From the NCBI GenBank assembly GCA_038087875.1, contig CM075988.1:18478001-18542000 (forward strand): DNA of 64,000 bases, in the 5' to 3' direction. Below, in pieces: positions 31,755-48,150 of this stretch. The position numbers and the translations under genes are program-made. Position 1 is the stretch's first letter. Each line of letters opens with the position of its first letter. The DNA is from Malacoraja senta. Its lineage: Eukaryota. The notes under the pieces are model-generated. The model was given only the letters and a program-made list of their open reading frames with translations. It had not been told where the DNA came from and made no database searches.

Positions 31755-32011
31755 TTGCATTGACCATAATTGAGGCTTTTCTCAATGGCCATAATAAATA
31801 ATATTCAGAAAAATAAAACTTTCTGAAACTTCTGTTTCTGGTAATGACTGTGTAACTCGATGGTGACGTTGGGAGGTGTAAAGGGTGAGAAGCCACAATG
31901 GATAACATCCCCAGAGAGAGATAGAGAGAGAGCTTGCCAACAGATGCACTCTTCTGCTACATGCACTCTACCTTTGAAAGCTGCATACAAATTCATTGTG
32001 GAGATAGATAC

Positions 32012-32148
32012 TTCTTCTTGCGTATGGCGTACACAGCCTAAAGTTGTAGGGCAACTTGTTCTATTTGATCTTACTTGATTGTGCACGCCAGGTTGATTGC
32101 ATTCGTCAAAACTTGGCGGACCACGTGAAGGTTGCAATCTCCCACCCT
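32012..32148 (-). mobile_element. 137-nt non-autonomous Ingi/Vingi-like retroelement
   Basis: TSD GAGATAGA(T/C)AC (32001-32011 / 32149-32159); 3' end GCCATACGC(AAG)n typical of Vingi-type tails; ribozyme-like 5' end. Confidence 0.75.
32095..32148 (-). ncRNA. Putative minimal HDV-like ribozyme (54 nt)
   Basis: AGGGUGG-GA-GAUUGCA-ACC-UUCACGU-GGU-CCGCCAA-GUUUUGACGAA-UGCAAUC: P2 7/7 bp, P3 3/3 bp, P1 5/7 bp, 7-nt L3, J4/2 CGAA. Confidence 0.7.
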
Positions 32149-32258
32149 GAGATAGACACAAAATGCTGGAGTAACTCAGTGGGTCAGGCAGAAACTCTGG
32201 AGAAAAAAAGTGGGTGAAGCTTCGGGTCAAGACCCTTCTTCAGTCACGATCCGAAAAC

Positions 32259-32458
32259 NNNNNNNNNNNNNNNNNNNNNNNNNNNNNNNNNNNNNNNNNN
32301 NNNNNNNNNNNNNNNNNNNNNNNNNNNNNNNNNNNNNNNNNNNNNNNNNNNNNNNNNNNNNNNNNNNNNNNNNNNNNNNNNNNNNNNNNNNNNNNNNNNN
32401 NNNNNNNNNNNNNNNNNNNNNNNNNNNNNNNNNNNNNNNNNNNNNNNNNNNNNNNNNN
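32259..32458. other. Assembly gap (200 N placeholder)
   Basis: Run of exactly 200 n. Confidence 1.
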
Positions 32459-47799: not shown

Positions 47800-48150
47800 G
47801 ATAGACCTGGAGAGAGTGGATGTGGAGAGGATGTTTCCACTGGTGGGAGAGTCGAGGACCGGAGGGCACAGCCTCAGAATAAAAGGACGTACCTTTAGAC
47901 AGGAGATGAGGATGAATCCCTTTAGTCAGACGCTGGTGAATCTGTGGAATTCATTGCCATAGACGGCTGTGGAGGCCAAGTTAATGTATATTTCTAAGGC
48001 GGAGATTGACAGATTCTTGATTAGTACAGGTGTCAGGGGTTATGGGGTGAAGGCAGGAGAATGGGGTTGAGAGGGAAAAGTAGATTGAATGGCGGAGTAG
48101 ACATGATGGGCTGACTGGCCTAATTCTGCTCCTAGAACCTTTGAACCTAT
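47800..48150 (+). mobile_element. CR1 LINE 3' end
   Basis: VDVERMFPLVGESRTGGHSLRIKG; GGCCTAATTCTGCTCCT tail. Confidence 0.9.

What the first reader, a model, noticed from the sequence alone, without database searches (positions are those of the whole stretch)
32012..32148. 137-nt mini-retroelement whose 5' 40% folds as a minimal HDV-like ribozyme
Seen: on the minus strand, a TSD-bounded 137-nt insert starts AGGGUGG-GA-GAUUGCA-ACC-UUCACGU-GGU-CCGCCAA-GUUUUGACGAA-UGCAAUC. This has the HDV nested-pseudoknot order P1-P2-P3-L3-P3'-P1'-J4/2-P2', with perfect P2 (7 bp) and P3 (3 bp), a CGAA J4/2 and almost no P4. The insert ends in GCCAUACGC(AAG)n. Known: HDV-like ribozymes process the 5' ends of ingi/L1Tc, R2 and RTE elements, and L1Tc has the same ACC-7nt-GGU P3/L3 layout. 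Inference: this is a SINE-like family with no tRNA head, made only of a 54-nt ribozyme plus a LINE-recognition tail, which could release itself from host read-through transcripts. P1 has 2 mismatches in this copy, so this copy may be inactive.
Basis: partly seen in the sequence, partly recalled or inferred. Interest (0 to 1): 0.85.

Follow-up and report, generated by a model that had tools for sequence, protein, structure and literature searches.

The report
Ribozyme-headed mini retroelement, about 8,400 copies
A 137-base jumping element, present thousands of times in this animal genome, begins with a stripped-down self-cutting RNA fold of the kind found in hepatitis delta virus and the mammalian CPEB3 gene, which probably trims the element's own front end before it is copied back into DNA.

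Summary
Window 32012-32148 (-) is one TSD-flanked copy of a 137-nt family. It has at least 8,368 5' ends and 8,647 3' ends in the 1.94-Gb genome.

The family majority sequence restores a 7-bp P1 with a G1.U36 wobble. Copies begin at G1: the TSD abuts position 1 in 21 of 27 copies with a TSD.

The first 54 nt form a nested double pseudoknot with no P4 (P1, P2, P3, one-pair P1.1, CGAA J4/2). L3, P1.1 and J4/2 match those described for the mammalian CPEB3 ribozyme.

The same genome holds sister ribozymes that pass Rfam's CPEB3 threshold, 39 of 59 scored, best 64 bits. Some head a 3.1-kb APE+RT LINE. Across these families the helices covary. A covariance model built without this family finds it at exactly positions 1-54.

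Not shown: cleavage. One polyA RNA run gives no pile of read starts at G1. No LINE shares the tail, so the partner is unresolved and nothing points to Vingi. The window copy has two broken P1 pairs.

Verdict: a new variant of a known kind.

The parts
32012..32148 (-). One copy of the 137-nt non-autonomous retroelement, called 'SINE-A' here. Position n of the element is window base 32149-n.
   Evidence: nhmmer E 7.4e-49, and it is the only copy in the window.
32149..32156 (-). Upstream target-site duplication TCTATCTC.
   Evidence: The same 8-mer lies at 32001-32008. One search finds it as an exact 8-bp TSD abutting position 1.
32001..32008 (-). Downstream target-site duplication TCTATCTC.
32095..32148 (-). 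The 54-nt HDV-like (CPEB3-type) ribozyme domain without P4.
   Evidence: Model R1, built without this family, matches exactly here at 18.4 bits, E 3.6e-4.
32142..32148 (-). P1 5' strand (positions 1-7). This copy reads AGGGTGG; the family reads GGGGTGG. The predicted cleavage site lies 5' of position 1.
32113..32119 (-). P1 3' strand (positions 30-36). This copy reads CCGCCAA; the family reads CCGCCCT. Two pairs are broken in this copy.
32133..32139 (-). P2 5' strand GATTGCA (positions 10-16).
   Evidence: also recovered in the MFE fold; covariation.
32095..32101 (-). P2 3' strand TGCAATC (positions 48-54).
32120..32132 (-). P3 (ACC/GGT) with the 7-nt loop L3 TTCACGT (positions 17-29). C22 is the candidate P1.1 partner of G37.
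   Evidence: T20, C22 and T26 invariant across families. The same L3 letters occur in a published mouse CPEB3 ribozyme primer.
32102..32112 (-). G37-U38 (P1.1 side), a 5-nt linker that replaces P4 (TTTGA here, TTCGA in the family), and the J4/2 segment C44-G45-A46-A47 with candidate catalytic C44 at 32105.
   Evidence: G37 is invariant, C22-G37 pairs in 38 of 38 distinct rows, and column 39/67 is U-A in both P4-less families and C-G in the P4-bearing ones.
32020..32094 (-). 3' body (positions 55-129) with a long stem, GGCGTGCAC (60-68) pairing with GTGCACGCC (115-123). This copy reads GTGTACGCC, which makes one G.U pair. The function is inferred: an RT-recognition hairpin.
   Evidence: the MFE fold pairs about 59-69 with 114-124. 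No covariation support was found.
32011..32019 (-). (AAG)3 tail. Other copies carry from 2 up to more than 10 repeats.

Best explanation
The insert is a dead copy of a young, very abundant, LINE-dependent non-autonomous retroelement with no polymerase III head. Its first 54 nt are a P4-less HDV-like ribozyme of the CPEB3 type.

Inferred mechanism. Copies are transcribed passively inside longer host or neighbouring transcripts. The ribozyme folds into the nested double pseudoknot and cleaves just 5' of G1, which gives the RNA a fixed 5' end. A LINE reverse transcriptase engages the 3' hairpin and the (AAG)n tail and copies the RNA by target-primed reverse transcription up to G1. The result is full-length 137-nt inserts with 7-16-bp target-site duplications.

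Shown: the family, its borders, its copy number, the conserved and covarying fold, and related ribozymes at the exact 5' ends of an APE+RT LINE in the same genome.

Inferred: catalysis, the role of cleavage in defining the 5' end, and the identity of the reverse transcriptase.
For: Family and borders.
- 8,368 5' and 8,647 3' 29-mer matches at up to 2 mismatches, reversed controls 0. The near-equal counts mean almost all copies are full length.
- 27 of the 30 best copies have exact TSDs of 7-16 bp, and 21 of those 27 abut position 1.
- Contigs of three other runs end their match at positions 1 and 136-137, with diverse flanks: 189, 258 and 50 records at the 5' border.

Fold.
- The majority sequence pairs G1.U36, G2-C35, G3-C34, G4-C33, U5.G32, G6-C31 and G7-C30. 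It also has a 7-bp P2, a 3-bp P3, C22-G37 and C44GAA.

Homology and covariation.
- Rfam CPEB3_ribozyme (RF00622) finds 39 places over its 35-bit cut-off among 59 scored candidates, best 64.2 bits.
- Parsing these gives at least 5 further families with the same geometry (7+2+7+3, a 7-nt L3, then GU, then CNAA) but different helix sequences.
- On 39 sequences, 90.0% of cells pair, against 36.6-44.7% with the partners slid. 16 of 24 pairs change on both sides. The covariation score is 0.445 against at most 0.103 slid. 0 of 500 shuffles reach it.
- Against the LINE ribozyme, 8 of this family's 17 P1-P3 pairs differ on both sides and none is broken. All 13 core unpaired bases (L3, G37, U38, C44-A47) are identical.
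- Model R1, built from the other families only, finds 7 of 7 intact copies searched, at exactly positions 1-54 (27.7 bits, E 1.2e-4).

LINE link.
- 8 LINE 5' ends have unrelated flanks right up to G1 of their ribozyme.
- One copy runs 3,127 nt to an AAGAAG-type end with an 11-bp TSD, has an 876-codon open frame and matches RVT_1 at 6.9e-31.

Precedent.
- P4-less HDV-like ribozymes cleave in vitro (abstract and passages of bioRxiv 10.1101/2023.06.13.544163).
- Ribozyme plus 3' end is enough for R2 SIDEs (abstract of PMC3414825).

No alternative head.
- No tRNA gene and no Rfam family at E up to 10.
Against: - No cleavage assay exists.
- In the one raw polyA RNA-seq run laid (X22, about 6% of it read), no position shows many molecules beginning or ending. 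Reads that run out of the element are about equal at the 5' border (196) and the 3' border (208). Efficient cleavage of sense transcripts should deplete the 5' class. Mitigating points: both strands are read, 1,051 of the 1,420 laid reads are only 90-95% like the query, and only 45 of 85 sampled copies still meet the strict descriptor.
- Rfam's own CPEB3 and HDV models do not reach E 10 on this family.
- P1.1 is a single G-C pair, and P4 is reduced to at most one U-A pair.
- Within the family there is no covariation; the copies are too young and the changes are mostly CpG decay. Substitution density is about the same at paired sites (2.9%), unpaired sites (4.2%) and the rest of the element (3.7%), as expected for dead copies.
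- No LINE shares the body or the tail, and the LINE's 3' end has no comparable hairpin. The dependence on that LINE is therefore only an inference.
Confidence: 0.72

Rival explanations
1. The head is a true descendant of a retrotransposon HDV-like ribozyme but no longer cleaves. Loss of P4 and the weak P1.1 killed it. It persists because it serves another role for the element, such as a protein-binding or RNA-stability structure, or a stop for reverse transcription. The fixed 5' end would then come from something else.
For: No pile of read starts at G1, and equal 5' and 3' border-crossing reads in the RNA run. P4 is absent and P1.1 is one pair. Rfam models miss it.
Against: All 17 P1-P3 pairs, C22-G37, U20, G25 and C44GAA are intact in the family's majority sequence, although 8 of the 17 pairs differ on both sides from the LINE ribozyme. 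That is selection for the whole catalytic architecture, not for one helix. A second, independent P4-less family exists in the same genome. P4-less HDV-like ribozymes are active in vitro. The inserts begin exactly at the predicted scissile bond.
Confidence: 0.17
2. It is an ordinary SINE or retroposed small RNA transcribed from its own internal polymerase III promoter. The transcription start defines the 5' end, and the ribozyme-like pairing is incidental to that.
For: Almost all copies are full length with a sharp 5' end, as in polymerase III SINEs. Read directly from the sequence, positions 37-47 (GTTTCGACGAA) loosely resemble a B box; the B-box consensus is recalled, not tested.
Against: ARAGORN finds no tRNA-like gene. 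Rfam gives no tRNA, 5S, 7SL or snRNA match at E up to 10. The same 5' architecture heads a protein-coding LINE, which has no use for a polymerase III head. The covariation follows the pseudoknot, not a promoter.
Confidence: 0.06
3. The HDV-like pairing is a chance arrangement in a repeat of unrelated origin.
For: The single-sequence MFE fold is not unusual (z -1.07). There is no covariation within the family.
Against: The descriptor gives 0 hits in the window and 0 in 10 shuffles. A model built from other families hits at exactly positions 1-54. Covariation across families beats 500 of 500 shuffles and all six slid controls. L3 is identical, 7 of 7, to the other families.
Confidence: 0.02

Closest known systems
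Mammalian CPEB3 ribozyme (Rfam RF00622), an HDV-like intronic self-cleaving RNA
   Same: Same numbering and geometry up to position 38: P1 of 7 bp starting with Gs and closed by G1.U, a 2-nt J1/2, a 7-bp P2 and a 3-bp P3. L3 reads UUCACGU; a published mouse primer for the cleaved ribozyme reads GTTCACGTCGCGGCC (PMC10274809, Table 2). P1.1 is one G-C plus U/U, and J4/2 is 4 nt with the catalytic C (passages of PMC4836649). Sister families in this genome score up to 64.2 bits on the Rfam model.
   Different: This family has no P4, and its P1 (3' half), P2 and P3 sequences differ, with compensation. It does not reach Rfam's threshold. It is a dispersed repeat of about 8,400 copies, not a single intronic locus. 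None of the 59 scored RF00622 places lies on the four contigs that carry CPEB ZZ-domain exons. The 59 are a small part of the rough candidate count, so this is weak evidence.
R2 SIDEs (short internally deleted elements) of Drosophila
   Same: Non-autonomous elements consisting of a 5' HDV-like ribozyme joined to a LINE 3' end, moved by the LINE's TPRT machinery (abstract of PMC3414825).
   Different: SIDEs are rare, rDNA-specific, and clearly deletion derivatives of their R2 or R1 parent. This family is dispersed genome-wide in thousands of copies. Its ribozyme has its own helix sequences, and neither its body nor its tail matches the LINE I found.
NARTc / L1Tc (Pr77, L1TcRz) of trypanosomatids
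   Same: A non-autonomous partner shares the 5' HDV-like ribozyme of its LINE and is released from co-transcripts (abstracts of PMC3383444 and PMC4035085).
   Different: Pr77 is also an internal promoter and is 77 nt long. NARTc is a truncated L1Tc with shared sequence. The host is a protist with polycistronic transcription.
Minimal (P4-less) HDV-like ribozymes: drz-Mtgn-1 and theta ribozymes
   Same: They lack the P4 domain yet self-cleave in vitro (passages of bioRxiv 10.1101/2023.06.13.544163).
   Different: Those come from gut metagenomes and phages, next to tRNAs. This one sits in an animal genome as the head of a retroelement.
HDV-like ribozymes at 5' ends of RTE-type LINEs
   Same: The 3.1-kb APE+RT LINE here carries its ribozyme at its exact 5' end. 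That such ribozymes occur on RTE-type LINEs is recalled from Ruminski et al. 2011; I saw only its citation and title.
   Different: The assignment of this LINE to RTE rests on architecture (length, one ORF, relatives of about 950-1,000 aa on contigs of about 3.0-3.4 kb), not on a tree. The CPEB3-type core has not, to my knowledge, been reported for such elements.

Membership tests
HDV-like self-cleaving ribozymes | Nested double pseudoknot in the order P1-P2-P3-L3-P3'-P1'-(P1.1)-(P4)-J4/2-P2'. | tested here: met
   Majority sequence; 90.0% of cells paired, 16 of 24 pairs with changes on both sides, 0 of 500 shuffles as high, slid controls at most 44.7% paired.
HDV-like self-cleaving ribozymes | G at +1 closing P1, typically as a G.U wobble, with the cleavage site at the 5' end of the fold. 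| tested here: met
   G1.U36 in the family (26 of the 30 best copies start GGGG). Inserts start at G1. The window copy has A1/A36 instead.
HDV-like self-cleaving ribozymes | A conserved cytosine in J4/2 just 5' of P2', and a C in L3 that pairs with a G after P1 (P1.1). | tested here: met
   C44 is at least 90% conserved across families, and C22-G37 pairs in 38 of 38 distinct rows.
HDV-like self-cleaving ribozymes | P4 helix. | tested here: not met
   It is replaced by a 5-nt linker with at most one U-A pair. P4 is reported as absent from active 'minimal' members, so it is not strictly defining.
HDV-like self-cleaving ribozymes | Site-specific self-scission in divalent ions. | not testable with these tools
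   The only indirect look was one RNA run, which showed no pile of read starts at G1.
CPEB3_ribozyme (Rfam RF00622) | Score at or above the family's gathering threshold (35 bits). | tested here: not met
   No RF00622 match at E up to 10 on the window copy or on a consensus-like copy. Sister families in the genome do pass: 39 of 59 scored.
CPEB3_ribozyme (Rfam RF00622) | Single conserved locus in an intron of the CPEB3 gene. | tested here: not met
   It is a dispersed repeat. CPEB ZZ-domain exons lie on C2259, C2128, C15 and C17, away from the window (C12) and from all 59 scored RF00622 places.
SINE (classical) | A 5' head derived from tRNA, 7SL, 5S or snRNA with an internal polymerase III promoter. 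| tested here: not met
   ARAGORN finds none. Rfam gives no such family at E up to 10.
SINE (classical) | Short, non-coding, dispersed, TSD-flanked, with a LINE-type 3' tail of simple repeats. | tested here: met
   137 nt, more than 8,000 copies, TSDs of 7-16 bp, (AAG)n tail.
SIDE-type element (internally deleted LINE) | The 5' and 3' ends are recognisably the ends of an autonomous element in the same genome. | tested here: not met
   blastn of the element against a full LINE copy gives no match longer than 13 nt. Negated-position pattern searches found only indel variants and truncated copies. The terminal 14-mer occurs outside the family context only 6 times. Only the ribozyme type and the terminal AAGAAG are shared.

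The most novel reading that the evidence does not exclude
The CPEB3-type ribozyme is not a mammalian invention. It is the 5'-processing ribozyme of an old vertebrate lineage of RTE-like LINEs and their parasites, and the mammalian CPEB3 intron ribozyme is one domesticated copy of it. Within that lineage this 54-nt head would be the smallest natural eukaryotic HDV-like ribozyme: P4-less and catalytically active. It would have been sufficient, with a hairpin and an (AAG)n tail, to drive amplification to about 8,400 copies with no promoter of its own.
Probability: 0.35. Interest if true: 0.9.

Novelty: new variant of a known kind. Interest (0 to 1): 0.78.

Why it matters
Three points matter.

1. 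It would be a high-copy, dispersed vertebrate retroelement whose only 'head' is a self-cleaving ribozyme. That shows a SINE-like parasite can do without a polymerase III promoter by cutting itself out of any read-through transcript. Until now this design was known from rare rDNA-specific SIDEs and from trypanosome NARTc.

2. P4-less 'minimal' HDV-like ribozymes were reported only from phage and metagenome sequence. Here two independent P4-less versions sit in an animal genome, next to P4-bearing relatives. That is a natural deletion series for studying what P4 contributes.

3. The sister ribozymes pass Rfam's CPEB3 threshold and head an APE+RT LINE. The origin of the mammalian CPEB3 ribozyme, open since 2006, therefore becomes directly testable as the domestication of a retrotransposon ribozyme.

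My literature searches found no paper describing any of this. They cover only the held library.

Tried and rejected
Partner by sequence identity. I ran five pattern searches that keep part of the element and forbid the family's own bases next to it.
- They returned 23, 447, 85, 19 and 6 places.
- The loci I read, and the matched strings listed for the rest, were copies with indels, internal deletions or insertions of other repeats, 5'-truncated copies (L072, L083, L087) and one chimeric copy (L054).
- None was a LINE. Only 100 of the 447 places were listed.

Simple internal deletion of the ribozyme-bearing LINE. Rejected: no blastn match longer than 13 nt, and the LINE's last 130 nt have no strong hairpin (z +0.62).

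Rfam assignment of the element itself. No ribozyme family at E up to 10; the listed hits (miRNA, snoRNA, CrcZ, RAGATH-9) are noise.

Covariation inside the family. None, because the copies are too alike.

The 3' stem. The variant copies L091 and L092 carry non-compensated changes, so I have no comparative support for it (and direct reading).

CPEB gene link. ZZ-domain exons are on other contigs than all 59 scored RF00622 places. This is weak, because only 59 of roughly 100,000 rough candidates were scored.

Earlier notes of this scan. Nothing held.

Weak model hit at window 48043-48130 (15.1 bits, E 0.17). On reading it lacks the core motifs, so I treat it as chance.

RNA runs. Only one raw-read RNA run was on offer. 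The contig runs (X1, X3, X15) cannot show RNA ends.
Full report
WHAT IS AT THE COORDINATES

On the minus strand, window 32148..32012 reads AGGGTGG GA GATTGCA ACC TTCACGT GGT CCGCCAA GTTTTGACGAA TGCAATC. A 75-nt body follows, then GCCATACGC and (AAG)3. The insert lies between two copies of TCTATCTC, at 32156-32149 and 32008-32001. The window is soft-masked eukaryotic DNA with an N gap just upstream. It lies in a 1.94-Gb assembly of 6,182 contigs.

IT IS A FAMILY, AND A LARGE ONE

- A DNA search of the genome gave 1,499 first-look candidates. All 40 that were scored were 95-100% identical over nearly the full 137 nt.
- A 29-mer from positions 3-31 occurs 8,368 times at up to 2 mismatches. A 29-mer from positions 107-135 occurs 8,647 times. 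The reversed-pattern controls give 0.
- The near-equal counts mean that very few copies are 5'-truncated.
- Of the 30 best copies, 26 start GGGGTGG, 3 start AGGG (including the window copy) and 1 starts GAGG.
- 27 of the 30 have an exact TSD of 7-16 bp. In 21 of these 27 the TSD abuts position 1; the other 6 have 1-3 extra bases. Two of the 30 (L029, L030) are one segmental duplicate. These 30 were chosen by full-length similarity, so they favour full-length copies; the 29-mer counts are the less biased measure.
- The median divergence of 81 sampled copies from their majority sequence is 2.2%. That sample includes copies picked for being variant.
- Contigs of three other public runs, carrying three different organism codes, and one raw RNA run of a fourth organism code also hold the family, with matches ending at its two borders.

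THE PREDICTED REPAIR OF P1

The majority sequence is GGGGTGG GA GATTGCA ACC TTCACGT GGT CCGCCCT GTTTCGAC GAA TGCAATC.
- P1 is then fully paired: G1.U36, G2-C35, G3-C34, G4-C33, U5.G32, G6-C31, G7-C30.
- P2 (10-16 with 48-54) and P3 (17-19 with 27-29) are perfect.
- C22 of L3 can pair with G37. U39 and A43 can close a UCG loop. C44-G45-A46-A47 sits directly before P2'.
- The window copy differs at positions 1, 35 and 36 (two broken P1 pairs) and at position 41.

CHANCE IS EXCLUDED

I wrote a strict descriptor. Its features are recalled from the HDV-like literature, not taken from a published motif file:
- G1;
- a 7-bp P1, a 6-7-bp P2 and a 3-bp P3 with no mismatches;
- L3 of 7-8 nt with C at its third place;
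- G directly after P1';
- C-N-R-A directly before P2'.

It found nothing in the 63.6-kb window on either strand and nothing in 10 shuffles of it. In 278 kb of fetched loci it found:
- 45 copies of this family, out of 85 whose 5' part is present;
- one unrelated ribozyme-like site (L043:221);
- one (GT)n microsatellite locus.

THE DECISIVE EVIDENCE: RELATIVES WITH COVARYING HELICES

Rfam's models do not report the element itself at E up to 10. A genome search with Rfam CPEB3_ribozyme (RF00622, gathering score 35 bits) scored 59 candidates out of a rough count of about 102,000. Of the 59, 39 passed the cut-off, with a best score of 64.2 bits at E 2.7e-14. None of 14 control genomes passed.

I fetched 48 of these places and parsed them. 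They fall into at least five further families. All share the geometry P1(7)-J1/2(2)-P2(7)-P3(3)-L3(7)-P3'-P1'-GU-[P4 or linker]-C-N-A-A-P2', and each has its own helix sequences:

| Family | P1 | P2 | P3 | Other |
|---|---|---|---|---|
| LINE family | GGGGATC/GATCCCT | GGTAGAA/TTCTACC | GCG/CGC | 8-bp P4 |
| F2 | GGGGGTC/GACCCCT | AGTAGAA/TTCTACT | GCG/CGC | J4/2 CTAA |
| F3 | GGGGGCC/GGYCCCT | AGCAGGA/TCCTGCT | GCG/CGY | L3 TTCTCGT |
| F4 | about GGGGACC/GGTCCCT | AGAAGGA/TCCTTCT | GCG/CGC | - |
| SINE-B (second P4-less short element) | GGGGTC/GGCCCC | GGAAAGA/TCTTTCC | GCG/CGC | J4/2 CCAA, tail GATAAGAAG, 11-bp TSDs in L099 and L100 |

An alignment of 39 ribozymes, 7 of them from the family under study, fell into register without editing. 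The pseudoknotted structure counted on it gave:

| Measure | Observed | Control |
|---|---|---|
| Cells paired | 90.0% | 36.6-44.7% with 3' partners slid by 1-3 columns; 73.5% in shuffles |
| Pairs with a change on both sides | 16 of 24 | 4-8 when slid; 137 of 500 shuffles reach 16, so this measure alone does not discriminate |
| Covariation score | 0.445 | at most 0.103 when slid |
| Shuffles reaching the observed cells paired, cells changed on both sides, and score | 0 of 500 | - |

C22-G37 is a C-G pair in all 38 distinct rows.

Caveats: cells count sequences, not events, and the families are related. My fixed-offset parse puts a T at column 1 for SINE-B, which produces most of the 20 non-pairs at pair 1/36.

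Read family against family, this element differs from the LINE ribozyme at 8 of the 17 P1-P3 pairs. All 8 are changed on both sides and none is broken. All 13 unpaired core bases (L3, G37, U38, C44-A47) are identical.

As an independent membership test I built a covariance model from the other families only (32 sequences; P2, P3 and the outer P4 pairs).
- It found 7 of 7 intact copies searched, at exactly positions 1-54 (27.7 bits, E 1.2e-4 in 89 kb).
- With filters off it found the window copy at 32095-32148 (18.4 bits, E 3.6e-4 in 1.26 kb).

RESEMBLANCE TO CPEB3

L3 (TTCACGT) matches a published primer for the cleaved mouse CPEB3 ribozyme, GTTCACGTCGCGGCC (Table 2 of PMC10274809). Passages of PMC4836649 describe for CPEB3:
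- a P1.1 of one G-C plus a U-U pair;
- a 4-nt J4/2 holding the catalytic C57;
- a U20.G25 wobble;
- C22 and A23 in L3.

The element has U20, U21, C22, A23 and G25 at those same numbers, followed by G37-U38 and CGAA. The family therefore works like a CPEB3-type ribozyme. It is not a member by Rfam's score and is not at a CPEB locus.

THE AUTONOMOUS RELATIVE

- Eight places with the LINE-type ribozyme have unrelated flanks right up to G1.
- About 60 nt after the ribozyme an ORF opens whose first residues look like an AP-endonuclease domain (my reading).
- One copy (C21) runs 3,127 nt from G1 to ...CACGAAAAGAATAAGA, and an 11-bp TSD AGCAACAAAGA follows.
- It has an 876-codon open frame. A 760-residue part of that frame matches Pfam RVT_1 at 6.9e-31.
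- Its relatives are proteins of about 950-1,000 aa with Exo_endo_phos plus RVT_1, on contigs of about 3.0-3.4 kb from many animals.
- This build is that of the RTE clade as I recall it. I made no tree.
- The four 5' regions fetched (L093-L096) are 95-99% identical over the first 250-580 nt, so the LINE is about as young as the short element.

IS IT THE PARTNER? UNRESOLVED

- The element and the LINE share the ribozyme type, a terminal AAGAAG and the TSD length range.
- blastn finds no match longer than 13 nt between them.
- The LINE's last 130 nt have no strong hairpin. The element has a 9-11-bp stem (60-68 with 115-123) six bases before its tail.
- Five searches that kept part of the element and forbade its own neighbouring bases found only variants, truncated copies and one chimeric copy (loci read).
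- The last 14 specific bases occur outside the family context only 6 times.

RNA EVIDENCE

Only one raw RNA run was on offer: X22, polyA, paired, of another organism code, with about 6% of it read. 1,420 reads were laid at 90% likeness or more, and 1,051 of them are only 90-95% alike.
- The element is covered on both read orientations (about 200-260 and 100-180).
- The tool lists no place where many molecules begin or end.
- 196 reads run out of the element at its 5' border and 208 at its 3' border.

There is thus no sign of efficient cleavage in steady-state polyA RNA. This counts against the functional claim, but weakly: antisense transcripts, decayed copies, a different species and the poor capture of 5'-OH ends would all blur a real signal.

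The same call gives subfamily variants seen in 10% or more of reads:
- inside the ribozyme: position 8 (J1/2), position 32 (G>A, which turns U5.G32 into U5-A32), position 42 (linker) and position 45 (G>T or G>A in J4/2; family F2 also has CTAA);
- in the remaining 83 nt: ten substitution sites and two 1-nt deletions.

No common variant breaks a helix.

MECHANISM, WITH WHAT IS SHOWN AND WHAT IS INFERRED

Shown:
- a promoter-less, non-coding, TSD-flanked 137-nt retroelement;
- a conserved HDV-like fold at its first 54 nt;
- inserts that begin at the fold's predicted scissile bond;
- the same situation at the 5' end of a LINE in the same genome.

Inferred:
- read-through transcription;
- self-cleavage 5' of G1 with C44 as the catalytic base;
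- recognition of the hairpin plus (AAG)n by a LINE reverse transcriptase;
- TPRT primed on the tail repeats, suggested by TSDs that often begin with G or A next to the tail, and run-off at G1.

I put about 0.9 on the fold being a true HDV-like/CPEB3-type ribozyme homologue, about 0.7 on the intact sequence cleaving, and 0.72 on the whole account.

WHAT IS KNOWN, AND NOVELTY

- Ribozyme-plus-3'-end non-autonomous elements are known: R2 SIDEs (abstract of PMC3414825) and NARTc (abstracts).
- HDV-like ribozymes at LINE 5' ends are known. For RTE elements this is recalled from Ruminski et al. 2011; I saw only the citation and title.
- P4-less HDV-like ribozymes are known, from phages and metagenomes only, according to passages of bioRxiv 10.1101/2023.06.13.544163.
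[quoted passage not shown] A 2021 review says structure-based searches found related ribozymes widely (passage of PMC8256844).
- Eight literature searches turned up no report of a CPEB3-type ribozyme heading a dispersed high-copy vertebrate element, or of a eukaryotic P4-less one. They cover only the held library. Repeat databases (Repbase, Dfam) could not be consulted and may already list the repeat under some name.

I rate it a new variant of a known kind.

Noticed in passing
G000 places listed; loci L093-L141: The genome holds a whole superfamily of CPEB3-type HDV-like ribozymes. 39 of 59 scored candidates pass Rfam RF00622 (best 64.2 bits). They fall into at least five families besides the one studied. 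The 15-mer AGCGTTCACGTCGCG alone occurs 1,004 times, with a control of 0.
   Followed up: partly
L093 + L101 (G000:C21:8954300-8958290, minus strand): A 3,127-nt LINE copy with the ribozyme at its exact 5' end, an 876-codon open frame with an RT domain, an end ...GAATAAGA and an 11-bp TSD. It is RTE-like in build. It is a candidate source of the reverse transcriptase, but this is unproven.
   Followed up: partly
L099:341-394(-), L100:102-155(+), L117, L121-L134, L136, L137 and L140: A second, independent P4-less short element ('SINE-B') with J4/2 CCAA and tail GATAAGAAG. Most copies have a T just before GGGG, so either its first base is U or its target site is biased.
   Followed up: partly
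L043:221-307 (+): A further HDV-like candidate found as a bystander. It has L3 TCCTCGT, a 39-nt P4 region and J4/2 CCAA. It meets my strict descriptor and scores 36.4 bits, E 8e-7, on model R1.
   Followed up: no
L098 (G000:C10:9303888-9303957) and L108, L110, L116, L119: Family F3 has a P4 beginning CAGATTCT and L3 TTCTCGT. From memory it looks closest in sequence to the mammalian CPEB3 ribozyme. It is multi-copy. None of these places lies on a contig with CPEB ZZ-domain exons.
   Followed up: partly
L054:1509-1565 (-): A TSD-flanked (CAGCATCATA) chimeric copy: an intact ribozyme head followed by about 24 nt of unrelated sequence instead of the normal body. This may be a template switch.
   Followed up: no
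window 32157-32270 (-); also flanks in L006, L017 and L066: The window copy is inserted at the very end of another abundant repeat that ends ...ctgcctgacccactgagttactccagcattttgtg. The region L013:1300-1499 is likewise another very high-copy repeat in all four runs.
   Followed up: no
window 32263-32400 and beyond: A run of N (an assembly gap or a withheld stretch) begins about 115 nt upstream of the element on the minus strand.
   Followed up: no
L024:2519-2615, L018:212-316, L039:936-1070, L079:2060-2163: Extra copies of the family turn up by chance within 1.5 kb of other copies. This is consistent with the very high copy number. One carries an internal deletion of positions 46-85.
   Followed up: no
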